Shown here: piece after piece, positions 21,191-61,669 of the stretch | Position numbering within the stretch: position 1 is the stretch's first letter | Layout of the letters: the number at the start of each line of letters is the position of its first letter | Assembly (NCBI GenBank): GCA_963664405.1 | Contig: OY761158.1 | Span: 2,240,001 to 2,304,000 of the forward strand | Reading direction: 5' to 3' | DNA length: 64,000 nucleotides | From: Thermoanaerobaculia bacterium | GTDB lineage: Bacteria > Acidobacteriota > Thermoanaerobaculia > Multivoradales > Multivoraceae | Position numbers and translations under genes: made by a program | The notes under the pieces: model-generated | Seen by the model: only the letters and a program-made list of their open reading frames with translations | Databases searched by the model: none | What the model was told of the DNA's origin: nothing

Positions 21191-22840
21191 ATGATCAATC
21201 TCCGAGGATGTGCCGTTCCGCTCTTTGTGGCATCCAGCCTGGCTGCAACGAGCGCCCGAGGACAGGAGATCGACCTCCCGGGAGTCTTCTCCGAGATCAT
21301 CGACGTACGGGTGGTCAATGTGGAGGTCGTGGTCACCGACAAGGACGGAATCCGCATTCACGGGCTTGGGCCCGACGACTTTCGACTCCTCGTCGACGGC
21401 CGGGACCAGTCGATCGACTACTTCACAGAGATCCTTGGAGGTGAGATCGCCGAACCCGAGGACGGTGTCCGCACCCTGCAAGCAGCGCCGGCTCTCGAGC
21501 CGGAAGGCCCGAGCACGAGCTATCTCGTCTTCATCGATGACTACTTTTCGATCGCCCGAGATCGCAACCGGGTTCTAGACGCCTTCAGCGAGGATCTGGA
21601 GTTCCTCGGACCACGAGATCGCATGGCAGTGGTCGCCTTCGACGGCAAGCGCCTCGACATGATCACCAGCTGGACCACAAACCATCGCGTCGTTCAAACC
21701 GCCCTACGACAGGCAACGACGAGGAAGACATTCGGGCTGCAGAGACTTGGAGAGAGGCGGCAGAGCGATTTCGACCGTGCGGACTTCGCCCGCTTCGGAC
21801 GCGGTAGATCGTCCGGTCTGAACCCGATGGAACGCTACTACGCCACCAGGCTGGCAACGCAGGTGGAGCGCGCCATCAACGCCGCCATCGCCACTCTGCG
21901 CAGCTTCGCCTCTCCACCCGGGCGAAAAGTGATGCTGCTCTTGAGCGGCGGCTGGCCGGTCTCTCCGGCGGAGTACGCGGCGGCCTCGCCGGGCGGCAGT
22001 TTCGACGCCGCCTTCAGGGCCGCCCAGGAACAGGGCATCCCCGCCTATCACCGTCTGTTGAGCCCGCTAACCGACACCGCCAATCTGCTCGGCTACACGG
22101 TCTACCCTATCGACGTTCCCGGTATGACCGCGACGATCGACGTCAGTGCGTCACGGCGGGCGCCTACCATCGGCGGAGGCATCTCCTCCGATCGCGAATA
22201 CGGCATCCACGACACCCTCAGGATCATCGCCGAACAGACCGGCGGCCGACCGCTGATCAATGCTCAGCGGATCCACGCCATTGAGACGGTCGCTGACGAT
22301 CTCCGCTCGTACTACTGGCTCGGCTTCAGCCTCGACCGGCAGGCCAACGACAGCCGCCACACAGTCGAGGTCGAAGTGCTGCGACCCGGCCTCAGAACCC
22401 GCTCGCGCGGGGGCTTCGTCGATCTCTCCCGCAGCAGTGAAGTAACGATGATGGTCGAGAGCTCACTGCTCTTCGGTAATCCGCCATCGAACCGCCCCCT
22501 CGAGATCCGTTTCGGCAACGCGAAGAAGGTGAAAAGAGGCATCGTCGAAGTCCCCATCGAGGTCGGTTTCCCACTCGATGAGGTCACGATGCTTCCCTTC
22601 GACGGCGGTTTCGCCGGTCAGGCCGAGGTCCGTGTAACAGTGATGGATAAGGACGGCAACCGCTCCGATACGTCGGTTCACGGCATCGACATTCGAGGCG
22701 ACCACGCGCCGGAGCCCGGCGAGATGTTCTGGTGGGAGTCTGGCCTTCTACTGCGACGCCGCAAGCACGAGATCGTAGTCGCTGTCCACGACCCGCTGAG
22801 CGGCATCATCTTTTCCAGCACGGTGGAGATCACGCCTTAG
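21191..22840 (+). CDS. VWA-domain protein (acidobacterial VWFA-related type)
   Basis: Signal peptide, VRVVNVEVVVTDKDG..GL..DDF, GRKVMLLLSGG, AEQTGG, YYWLGF. Confidence 0.85.
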   Translation: MINLRGCAVPLFVASSLAATSARGQEIDLPGVFSEIIDVRVVNVEVVVTDKDGIRIHGLGPDDFRLLVDGRDQSIDYFTEILGGEIAEPEDGVRTLQAAPALEPEGPSTSYLVFIDDYFSIARDRNRVLDAFSEDLEFLGPRDRMAVVAFDGKRLDMITSWTTNHRVVQTALRQATTRKTFGLQRLGERRQSDFDRADFARFGRGRSSGLNPMERYYATRLATQVERAINAAIATLRSFASPPGRKVMLLLSGGWPVSPAEYAAASPGGSFDAAFRAAQEQGIPAYHRLLSPLTDTANLLGYTVYPIDVPGMTATIDVSASRRAPTIGGGISSDREYGIHDTLRIIAEQTGGRPLINAQRIHAIETVADDLRSYYWLGFSLDRQANDSRHTVEVEVLRPGLRTRSRGGFVDLSRSSEVTMMVESSLLFGNPPSNRPLEIRFGNAKKVKRGIVEVPIEVGFPLDEVTMLPFDGGFAGQAEVRVTVMDKDGNRSDTSVHGIDIRGDHAPEPGEMFWWESGLLLRRRKHEIVVAVHDPLSGIIFSSTVEITP

Positions 22841-22926
22841 GCTCCAGAAATGATTGGTATCATTTCCTACGCCTAATTGCTCACGGCGCCGAGGACGGCG
22901 CACTCAGGCGTTGCTTCCTATTCGCT
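22837..22926. repeat. Mosaic repeat (40-bp palindrome A + hairpin B + segment C), interrupted by the IS
   Basis: Matches the reverse complement of 51448-51538 and 61046-61136 up to ...CCTATTCGCT. Confidence 0.8.
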
Positions 22927-22940
22927 GATATGGAACGACC

Positions 22941-23370
22941 TTTGTCAAGCACCCAACGCCGCCTTTCTTGTCTTCTTGTAGACGGTGGAGGGCGCGGGGG
23001 AAGCGAGTGGGCGATGGGCGTGGACCCAAGAGGTCGCTTCGACGACGAGTCACGCTGATATCCGCGGATTACCCTTCCGGGCAGAGCCGAATGACCGTGT
23101 TCCGTCGTGAGGTCGTGCACTCTTCGTTCGCGAATCCGGGAAAGGACTCCCTGTCGCATAGCGAAAGCGCGAATCCTCGGATCGTGCCTCCCGGGGTCCA
23201 GCCCATCCACCCACTCGAGTCTCTGTTGTTTACCTGCCTTCTTGCCCTTCGCGAGTCGCCCCGAGAGGTCGGTTCGGGGTCCAGGCTGTCGGAGCCATCC
23301 CGAAGGGACTTGGCCTGGAGGCCGAAGCGGCCTCTCGACAGAATTGACCAGGGCAAGAAGCGAATGCATG
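22941..23370 (-). ncRNA. Putative seek/bridge RNA in the IS 3' non-coding region
   Basis: Position expected for IS1111-type elements; contains TTCGCT (23165-23160) and CGAAG (23126-23122) matching the target halves, and ATATCAG (23061-23055) matching the IS end; boundaries uncertain. Confidence 0.55.
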
Positions 23371-24497
23371 TTAGTTCGTGCCGGTGCCTTCCTGCTGTCG
23401 AGGGTAGAGGTAAAGAACATCCACAGGAAGCCGACGAGCTCGCGAGCTATCGCAACGACAGCCTTGGGAGCCGGCTTGTTGGAGCCCAGTACGAAATGGA
23501 GATAGCGACGATGCAACCGAAGCTGCGCCTTGTCTGCCACAGTACAGACCTTCTGGGGTTGACCCTCGCGTCGTTTGCGTAGAGCACGACCCACAGCGGG
23601 CCGGTGTCGGTAGTGCCACGCGGCTTCGATCAAGATGCGACGCGCGTGAGCGTTGCCGGCCTTGGTGATCGGTCCCCGGTGCGTGCGATCCGCGCTCTCG
23701 TCGACCCGAGAGACCAAACCCAAGTACGCCATCAGCTTGCGAGGATCCGGAAACCGATCAAAGCCGTGTAGCTCGGTCACAAGGATCATCGCACTCACCG
23801 TGTCGATCCCCCGAAAACAGCGCAGCCATCCGACCGGTTCCCGATACGGCTCCTCAACGGAGATCTCCTCGATGCGCGTTTCCAAGCCTCGCATGCGCTG
23901 TTCCAAGAGCTCGATGGCCGACAGGTAGTCGTCGAAGACCGTCTGGCTCGCCTCGTGCTCGAATTCAAGAGAGCGCAGCCAAACTCGATGCCGCCGGGTC
24001 CAGTTGTTTCCCGACCGATAGACGAAACCCCGCCGCAACAGCATCTTCACCAGACGTTGACGGGCACGACGAAGATCCTCTACCGCATCCTCGCGACAGC
24101 GGCACAGATCCCGCACCGACTCCTCGCTCTCGCTCGGCGGATGCACCACCGTCAGCTGCCCACCGCGCTCCAAAGTCGCCAGCTTCCGGGCATCGCGGCG
24201 ATCCGTCTTGATCCGGTCTCCTGGCTTCACGGGTATCAACGACGGAGCGATCACCTCCGCCCGCACGCCTTCGGAAGAGAACTGACGCTGCAGCACATAC
24301 CCACACGGACCTGCCTCGTACACCACTCGCAGCTCCCCCTCCCCTTCACGCTTCAGGCGACGAGCCAGACGACGCACCGCTCGAGGCTCGTTCTTACAGC
24401 TCCACTCCAAAGGCTTCTCCACACCCGGCAGCAGAACGGCGATAGAAATCTCCTTCTTGTGTACGTCCAAACCCACGTATGTTGTAGCCTCACTCAT
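23371..24497 (-). CDS. IS110-family DEDD recombinase (about 375 aa; 1-nt deletion near 23421 causes read-through as assembled)
   Basis: GLDVHK, YEAGPCG, KTDRRDA, GLVSRVDES, GPITKAGN, VAIARELVGFLW; one extra G gives ...FLWDVLYLYPRQQEGTGTN*. Confidence 0.9.
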
Positions 24498-24695
24498 GAC
24501 CGGTTTCTCCCTTCCTTGCGGCTCTGGCGCGATTGCGACAACCCGCGATATCAGGTGGCTCTGCCACCCGGGTGATTAGATTCCCCGATTGTAGGACTCG
24601 AGGAACCGGTCGTTCCATATTGTCTTCGGGCGTCGTTGTCCTAGGCTCTGGTGTCGGGCTGAGCGGGTTCCAACCTAACGGCCTCGAGGAGAAAG

Positions 24696-25279
24696 ATGAC
24701 GAATCAAGCTCGGAAGCTCGTATGGCTTCGACCCCTGGTTGTCCTCACTGCGCTATCTGTTACGACAGCGGCTACCGCCGAGGAAGCTGAGAAGAGCGGC
24801 GGCGCGGGCCGCACGCACGACGAAGTGGCCCTGAGCTTCGAGGGTTACCGAGTCGTTGAGCTCAGTCCAAGAATCGTCGCCCGACTGCAAACGCTCGACG
24901 GCGAGATTCTGGAAGGGGCACCGGATCCCTACGGCTATCCATTGACTCTCAGGCAGGGCACCGCCCCCTACGACAACAGCACCCACACTCTGCTCGGCAA
25001 CCCCAAGGACAAAGAGTACCCGCACCCGATGCATCTTCATCTGGGGGCCCACACCGAAGCGGGCAAAGGTCATATCGGCCAGTTCGACGACCTTCCCGAC
25101 GACATGTTGGAGCTGTGGGAAATGCCGATAGACACCTTCTTCGGGCCAGCAGCCGTCTGCAACTTCGCGTTCTTGAAGCCGGTCGAGGGCACCTCGGCGA
25201 AGGGGAAGTCCGGGCTGCTGGGACAGGCCATTCTGCCCGAGCACTTCGCGCACGTTCGAGAGGGCGACATCGTTCTCCC
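24696..25279 (+). pseudogene. Cyclase/kynurenine-formamidase-like secreted protein, C-terminally truncated
   Basis: Signal peptide, VVELS, HLGAHTE, FFGPAAV, VREGDIVL, then abrupt loss of similarity. Confidence 0.6.
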
Positions 25280-25898
25280 GCGGATCAGAAGTGGGAGTTT
25301 GCGAGCGAACCGTGGTGTTGGTACGCAGCCAAACTGGGAATGAAAATGCTCGAGGTGGCCGACCTCGATCTCGAACAGCATCAGTGGTGCTTCAGCGAGG
25401 AATACACCTTCACACCCGAGCGCTTGATGGCAGGGCGGGATCTGGCCGGCTATTACTTCATGATCAAGGACGGAAAGATCAGCGGAGGCGCGGGAGTCCC
25501 GCAGGAGTGTCTCGATCTACCCGGGTTTCACGTCAAGGTCGCGTGGGGTCTCATCGCTCACCCCTCGTCTTTACTTCTACGGGAGGGAAGGTTCACGACA
25601 GCGGGGGATCGGCGCCAAACAGTTGTCACAAGATCTAGCCGCGGCGGGCAAAGGCAGACCCGAGATCGAGCCGAACCCGAGAAAAACCAATCGGGACGGG
25701 CCTGCTTGGCCTCCCGGCATAGGTGAGTCGCTATCGGTAGAGGCCGAAAACGGCGGTGGCCTCCACAATTTCACCGCTCTTCACCTCGAGCCCTCGCCCG
25801 AGGTCAAAGATCTCCCACAAACCGAATGGGGCGTAGCGGTCCTCACCGAAATGACCGAGCAACAGAAAGAAGACTTCTACAAGCTCATCGGCCGGTAG
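25280..25898 (+). pseudogene. Hypothetical gene lacking its start, with a +1 frameshift near 25570
   Basis: Coding-like frame ADQKWEFASEPW...AHPSS continues as YFYGREGSRQRG...FYKLIGR* if one T is removed from the run at 25570-25572. Confidence 0.5.
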
Positions 25899-27543: not shown

Positions 27544-30144
27544 ATGCCACCTCGCCTCTACCTCCCTAGCGCGCTCCTTCAGGCGTGCCGTCAATCCGCC
27601 CTGAGCACCGTCCACAGCGTGGCATTGATTCTGCTCTTCGCCTTGGTGCTACCCACCGAGGGCCTCGGGCAGGAGCGCGCTGGCGGCGGTCCAGAGTCGG
27701 CGCCGGCACCCCAGCCAGCGTCGAGGCAGGGTCCAAGAACGCAGGAACAGATCTCAGCAGAGATCCGAGCCCTGCCCCCGCGCTATCTGCAATGGGTGCA
27801 GAGCGTCCTCGGGCTGATCACCCAGGCGGAGCTCGACTACTTCCTCGACCTCGTCGGCGACTACCGCCGCGATGCCTTCATGGAAGCCTTCTGGCAACCT
27901 CGCGACCCTGTTCCGGCGACGCGGGAGAACGAGCTGCGCGCCCGCTGGCAGGAAAGTGTGTCGTCATCGAACGTCCGCGTGCCCTTTACCGATGCTCGCG
28001 CCATGCTCTATCTGCTCAACGGGGCGCCACAGGGATACAGCCTGCCCGACGGGCGTCCCGCCACGCGCTGTTTCAGTCGCACCGACGAGCTCGAGATCTG
28101 GTTTTACAGCGGAAGCGAGCGCCTCCAGAGGGAGTTCATCATCATTCTGCTCAAACGCGGCGCCCAGACGCCCTACGAGGCCTACAACCTGGGCGAGACG
28201 CTCCGCCCTCGCAAGCGTTCGGGTGCCCTTCCGACCAAAGACATCCGACTGCTTTGCGCTGACGAATACTTGCGTTATGCCTTGTCAGAGATCTCGCGCC
28301 CGGGAAACTACGAAGAGCTTCTCGAAACCGTCCTCAAGCCGCCGCTGCCATCCTCGGAGTGGCTCGCCAACTTCTCGGCGTCGACCACCGACCTGCCCAA
28401 AGACGCGGTCACCTTCCCGATGGTCGCCAAGCTCACCTTCCCGGAGCGCAACCAGAGCCGCACAGCGGTCCAAGTACTGGTCGAGATAACTCTCGAGGCA
28501 GCGCCGGGGAGGCGATTCGATGGTGAGCTCTTTCACAATTTTCTGGTCACCGGGGAGGTGATTCGGGACGGTCGCCTGTTCGAAAGCTTCAACTATCAGT
28601 TCGAGGGGCCGACGGAAGAGAGCACCACCAAGATCCCGCTCGGCTTCACGCGCTACCTGCGCCCGGGTCCGGCGGACCTCCGGGTGCTCGTACACGACGT
28701 CTACGGCAAGAGCTACTCCCGCCTCGCTCACGACTTCGAAGTGCCGAGCCCGGAAGGTCGACCCGAAGTCCGCCACGCGCAGCTGCAAGCCGGCACCGCC
28801 GCGGAACAGGAGGGTCCCTCGCTGCGACTCCTCCCACCCCCCGGCGCCACCCACGTCGGCATGTTGCGATTTCAGACCCGCGCGAGGGGCGAGTTCGACA
28901 AGGTCGCCTTCTTCGTCGACGACAAGCAGGTGATCAGCAAGAGACGACCACCCTACAGCGTCGAGCTCAACCTCGGCCAGGACGCTGCACCGCACCGCGT
29001 TCGCGTGGTGGGATTTTCGGGAACAACCGAGATCGCCAGTGACCAGGTGTGGCTCAACCAAGGCTCACAGCGTCTGCGTGTGCGCTTCATCGAGCCCCGC
29101 CCGGGCGGCATCTATCCCGGCAGTCTGACCGCTCGTATTGCGGTCGACACGCCTGACGGCACCCCTCCCGAGCGAGTCGAGATCTTTCTCAACGATGTCT
29201 CGATCGGAGTTCTGGAAGAAGGCCCTTACGTTCAGACAGTGCGTCTCGCCGACGACAACATCGCGGTCGTGCGGGCCGTCGCGACTCTCGCCGACGGTGT
29301 CAGCGCCGAGGATGCGGTGGTGGTCAACGCCGCCGGCTCGGTCGAGTCGGTCGAAGTCCGGTTGGTCGAGATCTACGCTCTGGTGGTCGACGAGAACGGG
29401 CAGCTCGTGACCGGCCTGGCGCAGGAGCAATTCACCGTTCTCGAAGACGGCGTCGCCCAGAGCTTGCGCTCCTTCGAAGAGACACGGGACGCCCCTCTCC
29501 AGCTGGCTCTCCTTCTCGACCGTTCTGCTTCGATGCAGCCTCATCTGGAGACCGTGGGCGAAGCCGCCTTCTCGGTGGCGACCAACGTCCTACAGGGAGA
29601 CGAAGACCGCATCTCGCTGATGTCCTTCGCCGACGACCTCTCGGTCGATGTGGCTCTGGGCTCCGACCTAGCGTTGATCGAGCGAGCGATGGCAGGCATG
29701 GTTGCGCGCGGTGGCACCGCTCTTTACGACGGCATCGTGCAGGCACTCGGTAGCTTCGATGGAGTGACCGGCGCGAAAGCTCTTCTCCTCTTCTCCGACG
29801 GCAACGACGAGGGAAGCAGCCTGAGCTTCGAGCAGAGCATCGCCGCAGCGAGCCGAGCCGGTGTCACCATCCACACCATCGGCTTGGCGGAGACCTACCC
29901 CGAAAAATCGGAGCGTCGGGTGCTCGAAGATCTGGCGGCGGAGACCGGCGGCCAAGCGCACTTCATCACCACCGTCGACCAGCTCGGCGAGCTCTACGAG
30001 GAGATCCTCGCCGAGCTCCGCACCCGCTACCTCCTCACCTTCCAGTCCGCAAGCCAAAAGCCCCCCGATCAGCCAAGAGAGCTGAAAGTCGAGGTGGACG
30101 CAAGGCGAGTCGAGGTCAGAGCACGCAAGAGCTACCGTCCGTAG
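27544..30144 (+). CDS. GWxTD-like domain + Ig-like + VWA domain protein
   Basis: FMEAFWQPRDP..ENE..TDARAMLYLLNGAP; PPYSVEL; MIDAS-like DRSASM, GGTALYD, FSDGND. Confidence 0.8.
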   Translation: MPPRLYLPSALLQACRQSALSTVHSVALILLFALVLPTEGLGQERAGGGPESAPAPQPASRQGPRTQEQISAEIRALPPRYLQWVQSVLGLITQAELDYFLDLVGDYRRDAFMEAFWQPRDPVPATRENELRARWQESVSSSNVRVPFTDARAMLYLLNGAPQGYSLPDGRPATRCFSRTDELEIWFYSGSERLQREFIIILLKRGAQTPYEAYNLGETLRPRKRSGALPTKDIRLLCADEYLRYALSEISRPGNYEELLETVLKPPLPSSEWLANFSASTTDLPKDAVTFPMVAKLTFPERNQSRTAVQVLVEITLEAAPGRRFDGELFHNFLVTGEVIRDGRLFESFNYQFEGPTEESTTKIPLGFTRYLRPGPADLRVLVHDVYGKSYSRLAHDFEVPSPEGRPEVRHAQLQAGTAAEQEGPSLRLLPPPGATHVGMLRFQTRARGEFDKVAFFVDDKQVISKRRPPYSVELNLGQDAAPHRVRVVGFSGTTEIASDQVWLNQGSQRLRVRFIEPRPGGIYPGSLTARIAVDTPDGTPPERVEIFLNDVSIGVLEEGPYVQTVRLADDNIAVVRAVATLADGVSAEDAVVVNAAGSVESVEVRLVEIYALVVDENGQLVTGLAQEQFTVLEDGVAQSLRSFEETRDAPLQLALLLDRSASMQPHLETVGEAAFSVATNVLQGDEDRISLMSFADDLSVDVALGSDLALIERAMAGMVARGGTALYDGIVQALGSFDGVTGAKALLLFSDGNDEGSSLSFEQSIAAASRAGVTIHTIGLAETYPEKSERRVLEDLAAETGGQAHFITTVDQLGELYEEILAELRTRYLLTFQSASQKPPDQPRELKVEVDARRVEVRARKSYRP

Positions 30145-30341
30145 CCTACGGAAGTGATTGCTATCACTTCCTCCGGCTACCACAACATGGCGCCGAGGAC
30201 GGCGCATCCGGACCCTCCGGCCGAAAGAGACGTCGTCGCTGGGGCCACCCCTAGGAGCGTGTCCGAGAATTCGGACAGGCGAGTAGTTCTTAGGGGGGGA
30301 TGGGCCGGAGAACGGGCCGTAGGCCCGTTTCCCGGGGCTAG
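30141..30341. repeat. Mosaic repeat: palindrome A (30141-30180), hairpin B, CTAGGAGCGTGTCC-type end
   Basis: GTAGCCTACGGAAGTGAT-TGCT-ATCACTTCCTCCGGCTAC; TGGCGCCGAGGACGGCGCA; the motif at 30251 is shared with 51407. Confidence 0.75.
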
Positions 30342-49167: not shown

Positions 49168-49447
49168 TGCGATGTCTCCTGTTTCTTCAGAGCCCCGCAC
49201 CATGCACGGGTCGTCGGCATGTCATCACGCCATATCAAACGCAAGATGCAGGCCAGACCTCGAGTCAGGAGAGCCAAGTCAGAGAGATCGCAGTAAAGCA
49301 CGGCCCCTTGGCTGAAAGTCTTTACATCTCTTACCACTGCCGGCGTGCCGAACCGCAGCTCTGCAGCGAACCAAAAGGGGCAAGGGTCGCCAATCAAGGA
49401 CGGCTCCGTCCCCGTACGAGAGCGAGGAGCCTGGCGGAGCTTCTGAG

Positions 49448-49640
49448 CGCGCCGTCCCGGCGCGGTGTTCACTAGCCGGAGGAAGTAATAGCCATCATTT
49501 CCGGAGAAAATGCGCCGTCCTCGGCGCCATATTCACCTAGCCGGAGGAAATGATAGCGATCACTTCCGGAGTCCGGATGCGCCGTCCTCGGCGCCATGTA
49601 ATCAGAACCGGAGGAAGTGATAGCAATCACTTCCGTAGGT
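49448..49640. repeat. BIME-like array B'-A-B-A-B-A (period about 65-67 bp)
   Basis: A = CCGGAGGAARTRATAGCNATCAYTTCCG at about 49476, 49541 and 49608; B = TGCGCCGTCCTCGGCGCCA at 49511 and 49578. Confidence 0.85.
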
Positions 49641-50645: not shown

Positions 50646-51410
50646 ATGGCTCCTCCCGACCGCTTGATCATGCTCGGTCTCGCCATTGTTCTTGCCGCTA
50701 TCTTCTTCGTCGCCGCGTTGGTCCGATCGGCGCTGGGCTTTGGCGACGCGCTGGTAGCCATGCCTCTCCTGACCCTGGCGATCGGGTTGAACAGCGCCGC
50801 CCCGCTCTTTGCCGCGGTGGCCTTTCTCTCGTCCGTGGCGATTCTGTGGGGGAGCTGGGGTGAGGTGCACTGGCGAGACGCCCTACCCTTGGTGCTCGGC
50901 TCGGCAGCAGGGATTCCCTTTGGCCTCGTTCTCTTGAGTCGGGCTCCCGAAGCCGCGATGAAGGCGGCCTTGGGAGTCGTGATCATCGTCTTCGTCTTGG
51001 CTCGGCACTTCGTGCCAGGCCTCCGCATCAAGCGGGGAGGAACCAAGCGGGCCGTACTGGCCGGACTGGTCGCGGGTGTGCTCGGCGGCGCCTACAACAT
51101 CAACGGCCCCCCCATCGCAATCTTCGGCACGCTCCGAGGCTGGTCGCCGCAGCGATTCCGAGCGACCATGCAAGGCTTCTTTCTACCCAGCGGGGCGTTG
51201 CTCGTCACCGGCCACGCCGTGGCGGGACTTTGGACGCAGAGGCTGGCGATCCTGGCCGTCCTCTGTCTTCCAGCGATGCTGGTGGGAGTGCGACTCGGAG
51301 CTTTTCTCAATCGATCCATCGAGCCCGAGCGTTTCGAGCACTGGATCAGGGCTCTCCTGATTCTGATCGGTGCTCTCCTCATCGTCCAGACCCTGGTCGA
51401 GCGAGCCTAG
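50646..51410 (+). CDS. TauE/SafE family sulfite exporter
   Basis: GFG..LVAMPLL, G.LGGAYNINGPP, FRATMQ. Confidence 0.85.
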   Translation: MAPPDRLIMLGLAIVLAAIFFVAALVRSALGFGDALVAMPLLTLAIGLNSAAPLFAAVAFLSSVAILWGSWGEVHWRDALPLVLGSAAGIPFGLVLLSRAPEAAMKAALGVVIIVFVLARHFVPGLRIKRGGTKRAVLAGLVAGVLGGAYNINGPPIAIFGTLRGWSPQRFRATMQGFFLPSGALLVTGHAVAGLWTQRLAILAVLCLPAMLVGVRLGAFLNRSIEPERFEHWIRALLILIGALLIVQTLVERA

Positions 51411-51538
51411 GAGCGTGTCCTAGTATTCGTTCTGAGCCGTTTCCCAAAGCGAATAGGAAGCAAGGCCCAAGTGCGCCGTCCTCGGCGCCAAGAGACAACT
51501 AGGCGGAGGAAATGATAGCAATCATTTCTGGAGGCTAG
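51407..51538. repeat. Mosaic repeat C-B-A with empty IS target (core 51448-51449)
   Basis: Homologous to 22837-22926 and 61034-61136; palindrome A at 51499-51538. Confidence 0.8.
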
Positions 51539-51546
51539 GCCTGAGC

Positions 51547-60936: not shown

Positions 60937-61033
60937 TCGTTCTGGCCGCCCTCTGCGTCTCGAGGCTGGCAGTCTGCGCGCCAGGCGGTCGGTTCTCAGG
61001 TGGATGGGCCAGCGACTCACAGAATCGGTCCTC

Positions 61034-61136
61034 GCCGTTTCCCGGAGCGGATAGGAAGCAACGCCCAAGTGCGCCGTCCTCGGCGCCAAACAGCAACTAG
61101 CTTTCGGGAATGATACCCATCATTCCCGAAAGCTAG
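61034..61136. repeat. Mosaic repeat C-B-A with empty IS target (core 61046-61047)
   Basis: Perfect 18-bp-arm palindrome CTAGCTTTCGGGAATGAT-ACCC-ATCATTCCCGAAAGCTAG at 61097-61136. Confidence 0.8.
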
Positions 61137-61669
61137 GGCAGGATGATGCCGCTTCCCAGACAGCGCAGCCGGTTCGCCTGGGCATTACTGCGATACACCC
61201 GATGACAACTGTCGCACGCTTCTGCGAGGTTGTTGGTCAACTCGCCGACCTCCGCCTGATCCTTGCGCAGCGCAGCTTGGTAAATCTCCCAGCCGACCTC
61301 CGTCATCTCGCGCGACCACTTGAGCCAGTCGTAACGCTGGACTGGTGCCATCTGCCCGTTCTCACACAGACGCCCGGGCTTCGTGATCAGGCTCGCACCT
61401 TCGGCGAGCACGAGGGCGGCGTTCTCGACCACCTGCCAACCGGTATAGATGCCGGAGAAAGTGCTGCTGACGGTCCCATCGCCCTTGCCTTCGGCACGCG
61501 GCGCGTCCGGGTCCCGCATCTGGGTGTCGAAGATGATGTTCGAGTTGGGAAAGTAGATACCTCGCATGATTTGAGCCATGGTCCCGACCGGCGCAGTATC
61601 GAGAGAGGTCTGTGCTCCAACGCCTACTGCCAGGGAGATCATCGAAACCAGGAAGACTGTTACTCGCAT
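61133..61669 (-). CDS. Class II (c'-like) four-helix cytochrome c
   Basis: Signal peptide, helical body, C-terminal CDSCH; AAGGAG SD. Confidence 0.8.
   Translation of the reverse strand: MRVTVFLVSMISLAVGVGAQTSLDTAPVGTMAQIMRGIYFPNSNIIFDTQMRDPDAPRAEGKGDGTVSSTFSGIYTGWQVVENAALVLAEGASLITKPGRLCENGQMAPVQRYDWLKWSREMTEVGWEIYQAALRKDQAEVGELTNNLAEACDSCHRVYRSNAQANRLRCLGSGIILP

What the first reader, a model, noticed from the sequence alone, without database searches (positions are those of the whole stretch)
22837..24630. IS1111-type RNA-guided recombinase inserted into a dispersed repeat, with readable guides and two empty sites in the window
Seen: removing the IS at its CT core rebuilds TTCCTATTCG-CT-TCGGG. 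The same repeat occurs empty at 51443-51459 (reverse complement TTCCTATTCG-CT-TTGGG) and 61041-61057 (TTCCTATCCG-CT-CCGGG). The IS 3' non-coding region (minus strand) contains TTCGCT (23165-23160; left target half plus core) and CGAAG (23126-23122; right half on the other strand plus core) about 33 nt apart, and ATATCAG (23061-23055) matching the IS end plus core. The occupied site matches both putative guides exactly; the empty sites have 1 and 2 mismatches. Known: IS110/IS1111 recombinases use bridge/seek RNAs, and some members target REP sequences. Inference: a new recombinase-guide-target set aimed at an undescribed repeat. Caveats: the guide matches are short, and the right flank follows the repeat for only about 5 nt.
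Basis: partly seen in the sequence, partly recalled or inferred. Interest (0 to 1): 0.8.

Follow-up and report, generated by a model that had tools for sequence, protein, structure and literature searches.

The report
RNA-guided jumping gene in a dispersed repeat
This is an IS1111-type insertion sequence whose own small RNA carries short guide segments matching the repeat it sits in and its own ends, a recently described mechanism of which this is a well-supported new example rather than a new kind of system.

Summary
Window 22927-24623 (minus strand) is a 1,697-bp IS1111-type element. It has 13-bp subterminal inverted repeats, a DEDD/Transposase_20 recombinase and a duplicated CT core. It interrupts a ~130-nt dispersed repeat (329 profile hits in the 6.78-Mb genome). 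Across relatives these positions covary with the flanking target and with the element's ends: 42 distinct guide sets, and 0 of 10,000 permutations reach the observed match. The two empty sites have the stated 1 and 2 mismatches.

Caveats:
- The element is single-copy here.
- Guide-target pairing is only 6 + 5 bp. The exact 9-mer occurs 218 times, 193 of them outside the repeat.
- This copy lacks one base that sister copies in other samples carry, so its recombinase frame stays open past the element's end.
- Its catalytic-loop motif is atypical.

A second, unrelated IS1111-type element sits in the same repeat about 45 nt away. The element is a new member of a known kind. Interest is moderate.

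The parts
22837..22926 (+). Left part of the interrupted dispersed repeat, ending in the left copy of the CT core (22925-22926)
   Evidence: nhmmer profile hit 22837-22927. The last 27 bases recur at least 21 times in the genome. A 17-mer at up to 2 mismatches is found 99 times.
22927..24623 (-). IS1111-type insertion sequence body (1,697 bp), single copy in this genome
   Evidence: Ends were defined by the conserved family termini and by the rebuilt empty site. No second copy was found in the genome.
22928..22940 (.). Subterminal inverted repeat at the recombinase-distal end (ATATGGAACGACC on the + strand)
   Evidence: Exact inverted match with 24608-24620. The motif ATATGGAnnGACC is conserved in relatives.
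22943..22948 (-). TTGACA, a -35-like hexamer 16 nt inside the 3' end. It is a candidate half of a promoter completed at the circle junction (inference).
   Evidence: TTGACN lies 16-17 nt from the 3' end in 112 of 140 elements, and within the last 40 nt in 123 of 140.
23040..23172 (-). Bridge/seek RNA core with two internal loops. The target-binding loop is closed by helices at 23172-23169/23118-23115 and 23158-23154/23133-23129. The donor-binding loop is closed by helices at 23107-23102/23045-23040 and 23091-23087/23067-23063.
   Evidence: RNAalifold on 42 sequences gives 32 pairs. 95% of cells pair, 15 pairs show compensatory changes and 0 of 500 shuffles reach the observed values. This is the only non-coding part that matches relatives at DNA level (74-80% identity).
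23160..23165 (-). Left target guide UUCGCU, equal to left target TTCG plus core CT, in the 5' strand of loop 1 (loop 23168-23159)
   Evidence: Same alignment columns as guides that match their own targets in relatives. The mean contiguous match is 4.6 nt cognate against 1.07 non-cognate, and 0 of 10,000 permutations reach it.
23122..23126 (-). Right target guide CGAAG, the reverse complement of core CT plus right target TCG, in the 3' strand of loop 1 (loop 23128-23119)
   Evidence: Mean match 3.1 nt cognate against 0.72 non-cognate, and 0 of 10,000 permutations reach it. This element scores 3.
23093..23096 (-). Left donor guide GGUC in the 5' strand of loop 2. Its third position mismatches this element's own 5' end (ACA).
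   Evidence: The NGT triplet equals the reverse complement of the first 3 bases of the element in 37 of 47 elements. This one is among the 10 that mismatch.
23055..23061 (-). Right donor guide AUAUCAG, equal to the element's 3' end ATATC plus core AG, in the 3' strand of loop 2
   Evidence: The last 4 guide bases equal the last 4 bases of the element in 46 of 47 elements, including 14 with non-consensus ends.
23371..24497 (-). Recombinase gene (DEDD_Tnp_IS110 + Transposase_20). In this copy the frame stays open to 22881 (538 codons). Sister copies carry one more base behind 23420 and would stop at 23373-23371.
   Evidence: Pfam hits. ORF list. Relatives stop 7-56 residues (median 9.5) after the RELxGFxW motif, against 164 here. 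The extra base is seen in contigs of 4 runs.
24513..24561 (+). Mirror copy of the donor-binding-loop module inside the recombinase 5' untranslated region. It reads like the loop on the strand opposite to the gene, just upstream of the ribosome-binding site. Its function is unknown.
   Evidence: Local alignment of the 5' region to the reverse complement of the loop scores 36, against a shuffle mean of 20 and maximum of 28. Both conserved blocks are present in 80 of 121 elements. They do not follow variants of the loop.
24608..24620 (.). Subterminal inverted repeat at the recombinase-proximal end (GGTCGTTCCATAT), followed by TGT and the right core copy CT (24624-24625)
24626..24648 (+). Right part of the interrupted repeat (short variant), TCGGGCGTCGTTGTCCTAGGCTC
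   Evidence: Compared by eye with the repeat copies listed
51408..51539 (-). Intact repeat copy with an empty site at 51459-51443. It has one mismatch to the right guide.
61022..61137 (-). Intact repeat copy with an empty site at 61057-61041. It has one mismatch to each guide.

Best explanation
Window 22927-24623 is an IS1111-group insertion sequence. Its DEDD recombinase works with a bridge (seek) RNA encoded in the 3' non-coding region on the same strand as the gene. The RNA has two internal loops.

Loop 1 is the target-binding loop. Its 5' strand carries UUCGCU, which is identical to the CT-strand of the left target half plus core. Its 3' strand carries CGAAG, which is complementary to the CT-strand of core plus right half.

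Loop 2 is the donor-binding loop. It carries GGUC and AUAUCAG in the same arrangement, directed at the joined ends of the element.

By analogy with IS621 and ISEc11, the excised circle would be recombined at the CT core into TTCG-CT-TCG. In this genome that sequence lies at the foot of a hairpin in one module of a ~130-nt dispersed repeat.

Shown here: the anatomy, the RNA structure by covariation, and guide-target and guide-end covariation across relatives.
Inferred: transcription, circle formation, the junction promoter, and present-day activity of this particular copy.
For: 1. Family and ends:
- Pfam DEDD_Tnp_IS110 (E = 1.4e-15) and Transposase_20 (E = 3.6e-17).
- Exact 13-bp subterminal inverted repeats. 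The termini AC[ACG]ATATGGA...TCCATATC are conserved in relatives. AG (CT on the other strand) is present on both sides in 51 of 53 elements that have both flanks.

2. RNA structure:
- The 42-sequence alignment A1 gives two loops closed by 7 helices.
- 95% of cells pair against 86.7% in shuffles, and 15 of 32 pairs show changes on both sides.
- 0 of 500 shuffles reach any of the five measures. Slid registers pair at 25-48%.
- Frequent G-U pairs fix the strand as that of the gene.

3. Guide-target covariation:
- 161 sources were examined (the window's own element plus 160 related loci). 140 gave a 3' end plus the RNA anchor and 124 gave both ends. 47 of those passed strict end and register filters, giving 42 distinct guide pairs.
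- The left guide matches its own target over 4.6 nt on average beyond the core, against 1.07 nt for other elements' targets. The right guide matches over 3.1 nt against 0.72 nt.
- 0 of 10,000 permutations reach either sum. This element scores 4 and 3, near the family medians.

4. Guide-end covariation:
- The right donor guide matches the element's own 3' end in 46 of 47 elements, including the variant ends TATG, TAGC, TGTC, TCCT and TACC.
- The left donor guide matches the 5' end in 37 of 47.

6. The target is a real repeat:
- 329 profile hits in the genome.
- 25 unoccupied repeat copies carry the exact TTCGCTTCG.

7. Sister copies, 98-99% identical, occur in contigs of runs from three other studies. 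Their left flank is the same repeat. None of the 40 listed differences lies in 23040-23172, though 4 more were not shown. In run X9 the contig leaves the window's sequence 4 nt past the core, while another X9 contig begins at 24631. This fits an insertion at a different locus.

8. Published mechanism:
[quoted passage not shown] The IS1111 group has 7-17-bp subterminal repeats and its RNA in the right end (Durrant 2024, PMC11208160, passages found).
- IS1111 elements have a downstream non-coding region and a seekRNA in which the top-strand match lies 5' of the bottom-strand match (Siddiquee 2024, PMC11187229, sections 6 and 9).
Against: - There is one copy only in this genome, and none above 65% DNA identity in the 40 relatives searched. 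Target choice therefore cannot be read from several insertions here.
- Pairing is short: 6 bp and 5 bp including the core. The guide positions further out (-5 to -7 on the left, -4 and -5 on the right) do not match the repeat.
- TTCGCTTCG occurs 218 times in the genome, and 193 of these lie outside the repeat.
- In this copy the basal helix of loop 1 forms only 2 of its 4 consensus pairs, and the left donor guide mismatches the element's own end.
- The 156-nt RNA core folded alone is no more stable than shuffles (z = 0.06). Support for the structure comes from covariation, not energy.
- The recombinase frame differs from sister copies after ...ARELVGFLW and has no stop inside the element.
- The family motif GLVP..H.SG reads GLVSRVDESA here. 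That makes this the only intact protein out of 89 scanned that lacks the proline.
- No RNA or circle-junction data were obtained.
Confidence: 0.88

Rival explanations
1. The element is a genuine RNA-guided IS, but the repeat is not its evolved target. On this view it landed at one of about 219 sites carrying the 9 matched bases, and that site happened to lie in a repeat copy.
For: - 193 of 218 exact 9-mer sites lie outside the repeat. A site picked at random among them would fall in the repeat in about 12% of cases.
- The outer guide positions do not match the repeat.
- The element is single-copy here although 25 exact repeat sites are free.
- The target-bearing half of the repeat was found in none of the 40 relatives searched, yet sister copies of the IS occur in other samples.
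Against: - Match lengths of 4 and 3 are typical of cognate pairs in the family.
- The X9 sister copy appears to lie at another locus with the same repeat on its left and TCGG on its right. Its far flank could not be read.
- A second IS1111-type element also sits in this repeat. IS110/IS1111 members are known to target repeats, for example ISPpu9 in REP sequences (PMC12288879, passages found).
Confidence: 0.15
2. This particular copy is a decaying, non-autonomous relic. Its recombinase is impaired, which would explain why it has not spread to the free sites. This reading is compatible with the identity given in the best explanation.
For: - The frame stays open 164 residues past the C-terminal motif, against 7-56 in 84 relatives. 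The copy lacks one base that contigs of X8, X9 and a second variant in X1 and X2 carry. Contigs with 0 differences in X1 and X2 confirm the window's version.
- The catalytic-loop motif is atypical. Siddiquee 2024 (section 6) reports that the SG of this motif is required in the related invertase Piv.
- Helix 1 is weak and the left donor guide mismatches the element's end.
Against: - Only the last ~17 poorly conserved residues are replaced. The DEDD motifs and the serine are kept.
- No listed difference in the X8 or X9 copies falls in the motif codons 23688-23720. The odd motif is therefore a trait of the lineage, and that lineage has more than one locus.
- Siddiquee 2024 notes that TA occasionally replaces SG.
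- X1 and X2 may be the samples the genome was assembled from, so they are not independent evidence.
Confidence: 0.4
3. The short matches are chance, and target choice is made by the protein or by DNA structure alone.
For: - Matches of 5-7 nt are expected fairly often in 445 nt.
- Other matches to the empty site, some longer, occur elsewhere in the non-coding region.
- The target lies in a hairpin-forming repeat.
Against: - The guide positions covary with targets and with ends in 42 distinct sets, and no permutation reaches the observed match.
- The other matches do not lie at conserved loop positions. Several of them are C(UUCG)G-type hairpin loops.
Confidence: 0.03

Closest known systems
IS1111-group elements with seekRNA (ISEc11, ISPa11, ISKpn4; Siddiquee et al. 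2024, PMC11187229)
   Same: - DEDD recombinase with the PF02371 C-terminal domain.
- Subterminal inverted repeats.
- A long non-coding region downstream of the gene.
- An RNA with one segment matching each strand of the target, overlapping at the insertion point.
- A different target for each element.
   Different: - The recombinase family here is about 360-375 residues, against the 330-350 stated for IS1111.
- The closest relatives found are 65-66% identical and come from uncultured soil and sediment bacteria.
- The target is a ~130-nt composite repeat.
- Which named ISfinder entry is nearest was not tested.
IS621 bridge RNA (Durrant et al. 2024, PMC11208160)
   Same: - Two internal loops, target first and donor second.
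- The 5' strand of each loop equals the CT-strand, and the 3' strand is complementary to it.
- A CT core.
- A conserved stretch after the right target guide (AGAC) that matches the element's own end. This resembles the published handshake guide, but that link is my inference.
   Different: - The RNA lies 3' of the gene, not 5'.
- Read in the direction of the gene, the core is AG.
- The subterminal repeats are 13 bp, against 2-3 bp.
- Guide matches are shorter here (about 4-6 + 2 and 2-4 + 2).
- Durrant et al. remark that many IS1111 donor sites sit in multi-loops, whereas this family has a simple internal loop.
REP-targeting IS110-family elements ISPpu9 and ISPpu10 (Pares-Guillen et al. 2025, PMC12288879)
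   Same: - Insertion at a fixed position of a dispersed hairpin-forming repeat.
- An AG dinucleotide at both ends, read in the direction of the gene.
- Complementary RNA modules upstream and downstream of the gene.
   Different: - The repeat here is not a ~35-nt REP.
- In ISPpu9 the downstream RNA (Ssr9) is dispensable and sits on a separable module. Here the downstream RNA is the guide RNA itself.

Membership tests
IS1111 group of the IS110 family | DEDD (RuvC-like) N-terminal domain plus the PF02371 C-terminal domain | tested here: met
   PF01548 (E = 1.4e-15) and PF02371 (E = 3.6e-17), both above the curated cut-offs
IS1111 group of the IS110 family | Subterminal inverted repeats of 7-17 bp with short terminal extensions | tested here: met
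   13 bp at 22928-22940 and 24608-24620, with extensions of 1 and 3 nt
IS1111 group of the IS110 family | The longer non-coding region lies downstream of the recombinase gene | tested here: met
   In relatives the stop lies about 300-370 nt (range 220-697) before the 3' end, and the 5' region is about 125 nt. In this copy the same region exists but the frame runs through it.
IS1111 group of the IS110 family | C-terminal GL-P----S(t)G motif | tested here: inconclusive
   80 of 89 relatives match the motif. This copy reads GLVSRVDESA: the serine is kept, the proline is lost and alanine replaces glycine.
IS1111 group of the IS110 family | Recombinase of 330-350 residues (range given by Siddiquee 2024) | tested here: not met
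   Homology covers 359-375 residues. The open frame here is 538 codons. This is a descriptive range rather than a strict criterion.
Bridge/seek-RNA-guided recombinase system | A structured RNA with target and donor loops whose strands covary with the target and with the element's ends | tested here: met
Bridge/seek-RNA-guided recombinase system | The same core dinucleotide in target and donor, present on both sides of the inserted element | tested here: met
   CT at 22925-22926 and 24624-24625. AG/AG (read in the gene's direction) in 51 of 53 relatives.
Bridge/seek-RNA-guided recombinase system | The RNA is expressed, binds the recombinase and is needed for transposition | not testable with these tools
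   No run on record as RNA held the stretch. No wet-lab data are available.
REP/BIME-type repeats (considered for the target repeat) | A short (~35 nt) imperfect palindrome, extragenic, present in hundreds of copies | tested here: not met
   The unit is about 130 nt with two modules and at least three hairpins, sometimes in tandem arrays of period 76-128 nt. Copy number is high (329 hits). Extragenic location was checked only at the occupied copy, which begins at the stop codon of the upstream ORF. No Rfam family matches it.

The most novel reading that the evidence does not exclude
The genome-specific half of the dispersed repeat serves as a shared landing pad. Two unrelated IS1111-type lineages in one genome have each tuned a target loop to a different position of it, so natural retargeting to a host's own repeats would be observed in one genome. 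In addition, the mirror copy of the donor-binding loop in the recombinase 5' untranslated region, conserved in about two thirds of the family, could be an RNA-level switch linking guide-RNA abundance to recombinase translation. I did not find such a feature in the passages I read on IS1111 elements.
Probability: 0.25. Interest if true: 0.6.

Novelty: new member of a known kind. Interest (0 to 1): 0.4.

Why it matters
It adds a fully dissected natural example of RNA-guided recombination from a poorly studied clade, uncultured soil and sediment bacteria. The clade has a simple two-loop RNA and at least 42 naturally different guide sets whose targets can be read from the flanks. That is a ready comparative data set on how many guide positions these enzymes use.

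It also shows that a lineage-specific repeat, not only classical REP sequences, can be the landing site, and that two such elements use the same repeat.

It does not change the picture of how these systems work.

Tried and rejected
Rfam:
- Nothing at E <= 1 in 22000-25500.
- Only chance-level hits, all far below the gathering scores, on an intact repeat copy.

Other copies of the element:
- None in the genome.
- None above 65% DNA identity in 40 relatives.
- Best protein identity is 65% in species-representative genomes and 66% in metagenome contigs.

RNA evidence:
- No RNA holder is listed among 24 runs. This says nothing on expression.

Read laying:
- Contigs only, so no starts, ends or strand can be read.
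- No circle junction or precise-excision joint was listed.
- The joints that were listed are repeat-to-repeat or come from variants.

Folding:
- The RNA core alone gives z = 0.06.
- The whole 445-nt region gives z = -3.99, but that minimum-energy fold does not show the two loops.

Neighbouring ORFs:
- 21191-22840 and 24696-25343 have no Pfam family at E <= 0.001.

The 5' mirror module:
- I tested whether it follows variants of the donor loop. It does not: 0 of 20 elements with ATCACCG and 0 of 17 with ATCCGCG carry the exact complement. Simple maintenance by pairing is therefore not supported.

Rejected ideas:
- The repeat is a miniature derivative of this IS. It holds no ATATGGA-type ends (by eye).
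- The long 538-codon frame is a real extended protein domain. Relatives and sister copies end about 165 residues earlier.

Not done:
- Supplementary files of the papers were not opened. They hold the IS1111 RNA models and target lists, which might show whether this clade was already covered.
- I did not search for the nearest named ISfinder entry.


Full report
WHAT IS THERE

The region holds a minus-strand ORF from 24497 to 22881. It carries the two domains of IS110-family recombinases, PF01548 and PF02371.

The element is bounded by exact 13-bp subterminal inverted repeats at 22928-22940 and 24608-24620. A CT dinucleotide lies on each side, at 22925-22926 and 24624-24625.

The body is 1,697 bp and occurs once in the 6.78-Mb single-contig genome. 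The 27 bases to its left recur at least 21 times in that same search.

THE TARGET REPEAT

- A 17-mer ending at the insertion point is found 99 times at up to 2 mismatches.
- A two-round nhmmer profile finds 329 hits.
- The full unit is about 130 nt and has two modules. The first (about 70 nt) often occurs alone and in tandem arrays. The second carries the insertion site.
- As single-stranded DNA the unit forms several hairpins. In the centroid fold the site lies at the foot of a TTCG/CGAA stem.
- No Rfam family matches the repeat.
- Among 40 relatives, the first module was found in 4 genomes of the same family. The target-bearing module was found in none.

RELATIVES AND ENDS

- A scan of species-representative genomes gave 303 relatives, of which 80 loci were kept (46-65% identity over residues 1 to about 360-375).
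- A metagenome scan gave 498 relatives, of which 80 were kept (best identity 66%).
- The termini are conserved. Read in the direction of the gene they are flank-AG | AC[ACG]ATATGGAnnGACC ... GGTCnnTCCATATC | AG-flank.
- AG lies on both sides in 51 of 53 elements that have both flanks.
- Targets differ widely between elements.

THE RNA AND ITS GUIDES

Aligning the last 300 nt of the elements shows a conserved block. It is also the only non-coding part that matches relatives at DNA level (74-80% identity).

On a 42-sequence alignment (A1) RNAalifold predicts 32 pairs in 7 helices closing two internal loops. The controls support the structure:
- 95.0% of cells pair, against 86.7% in shuffles.
- 15 pairs have changes on both sides.
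- 0 of 500 shuffles reach any measure.
- Slid registers pair at only 25-48%.

In the window the loop strands are 23168-23159, 23128-23119, 23101-23092 and 23062-23046. A fourth guide, GGUC at 23096-23093, lies in the third.

COVARIATION

How the test set was reached:
- 161 sources were examined. 140 gave a 3' end plus the RNA anchor, and 124 gave both ends.
- 125 distinct RNA regions were aligned.
- I dropped rows whose ends did not match the exact motif, whose flanks were shorter than 16 nt, whose flanks lacked AG, or whose guide blocks were out of register.
- 47 elements remained, with 42 distinct guide pairs.

Target guides:
- The left guide matches its own target contiguously for 4.6 nt beyond the core on average, against 1.07 nt for other elements' targets.
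- The right guide matches for 3.1 nt against 0.72 nt.
- No permutation out of 10,000 reaches either observed sum.
- This element scores 4 and 3.

Donor guides:
- The right donor guide equals the element's own 3' end in 46 of 47 elements, including 14 with variant ends.
- The left donor guide equals the 5' end in 37 of 47. This element is one of the mismatching ten.

HOW THIS COMPARES WITH PRINT

- Durrant et al. 2024 (PMC11208160, passages found) describe two loops in which the 5' strand pairs with the bottom strand and the 3' strand with the top strand. They place IS1111-group RNAs in the right end and give subterminal repeats of 7-17 bp.
- Siddiquee et al. 2024 (PMC11187229, sections 6, 9 and 13) describe the downstream non-coding region, the seekRNA with one match per strand, the GL-P----S(t)G motif and a different target for each element.
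- Pares-Guillen et al. 2025 (PMC12288879, passages found) describe REP-targeting ISPpu9 with AG at both ends.
- A 2026 review was read only in passages.

The element is therefore a new member of a known kind. Its recombinase family is somewhat longer than the range given for IS1111. Its donor site sits in a simple internal loop, whereas Durrant et al. note multi-loops in many IS1111 members.

LIMITS ON 'AIMED AT THE REPEAT'

- The matched site is 9 bases, TTCG-CT-TCG.
- It occurs 218 times in the genome: 25 in repeat copies and 193 elsewhere.
- The commoner repeat variant, TTCGCTCCG, has a mismatch next to the core (43 copies in the repeat).
- With one insertion in this genome, a random pick among exact sites would hit the repeat about one time in eight.

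Two further observations favour real targeting of the repeat.

First, contigs of runs from other studies hold sister copies 98-99% identical, with the same repeat on the left. In X9 a 2,176-nt contig covers 22885-24629 and then runs on for 430 nt unlike the window. Another X9 contig begins at 24631 at about 96% identity. That fits a different locus. I could not read that flank.

Second, a different IS1111-type element is inserted in the same repeat about 45 nt downstream, between CGAATACTCGGA and CACGCTCCTAG. It is 1,478 bp, has three copies and is 26-28% identical in protein. Its 3' non-coding region holds UAGGAGCGU, found by program, and UCGGAC about 25 nt later, seen by eye. Both match its own site.

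STATE OF THIS COPY

- In 84 relatives the protein ends 7-56 residues (median 9.5) after a RELxGFxW motif. Here 164 residues follow and the frame leaves the element.
- Contigs of X8, X9 and a second variant in X1 and X2 have one more C behind 23420. The other frame then gives ...VLYLYPRQQEGTGTN and a stop at 23373-23371, much like the closest relative.
- Contigs in X1 and X2 with no difference confirm the window's version. These runs may be the source of the assembly.
- The motif GLVP..H.SG reads GLVSRVDESA here. This is the only such case among 89 proteins scanned. No listed difference in the sister copies falls in those codons, so it is a trait of the lineage.
- Helix 1 of the RNA forms 2 of its 4 consensus pairs here.

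I put the chance that this copy is no longer autonomous at about 0.4.

OTHER FEATURES

- TTGACN lies 16-17 nt from the 3' end in 112 of 140 elements. After circle formation it would face GAC[ACG]AT from the 5' end at a spacing of 17-18 nt. That would make a junction promoter of the kind reported for this family. This is an inference.
- The 5' untranslated region holds a mirror copy of the donor loop module at 24513-24561, and it does not track variants of the loop. Its function is unknown.

VERDICT

The element is a new member of a known kind, and interest is moderate.

Noticed in passing
G000:C1 3365983-3366678, 3696483-3697178, 3899659-3900354 (loci L206-L208), outside the window: A second IS1111-type element (1,478 bp, three copies, 26-28% protein identity to the first) is inserted in the same dispersed repeat about 45 nt downstream, between CGAATACTCGGA and CACGCTCCTAG. 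It has subterminal repeats GGACTCC/GGAGTCC. Its 3' non-coding region holds two short segments matching its own site.
   Followed up: partly
window 24513-24561 (+ strand reading): The recombinase 5' untranslated region contains a reverse-complement copy of the donor-binding-loop module just upstream of the ribosome-binding site. Both conserved blocks are present in 80 of 121 family members, but they do not follow variants of the loop itself.
   Followed up: partly
window 30142-30213, 49439-49639; genome-wide: The first ~70-nt module of the repeat occurs alone and in tandem arrays (periods 76-128 nt). It is shared with 4 of the 40 relatives searched, whereas the target-bearing module was found only in this genome. 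No Rfam family matches. What spreads this repeat is unknown.
   Followed up: partly
window 23030-23073: In runs X1 and X2 this conserved stretch of the donor loop has about 20 times the depth of its surroundings (bins at about 170 and 131 against 6-9). A 140-nt contig of depth 124 differs from it at 4 positions. Many related elements sharing this module are therefore present in those samples.
   Followed up: no
window 23357-23365 (minus strand): A 9-nt match to the rebuilt empty site (ATTCGCTTC, spanning the core) lies just after the point where sister copies stop translation, outside the conserved loops. I expect about 0.05 such matches by chance. It is unexplained and probably a coincidence.
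   Followed up: no
loci L032, L136, L148, L152, L156-L158, L163, L174 and others: Many metagenome relatives share one guide set (TCGCAGCU and GAUAAG) and the same target (ACCGGGGATA-AG-CTGCGAAGCT). That suggests another widespread conserved or repeated target sequence for this family.
   Followed up: no
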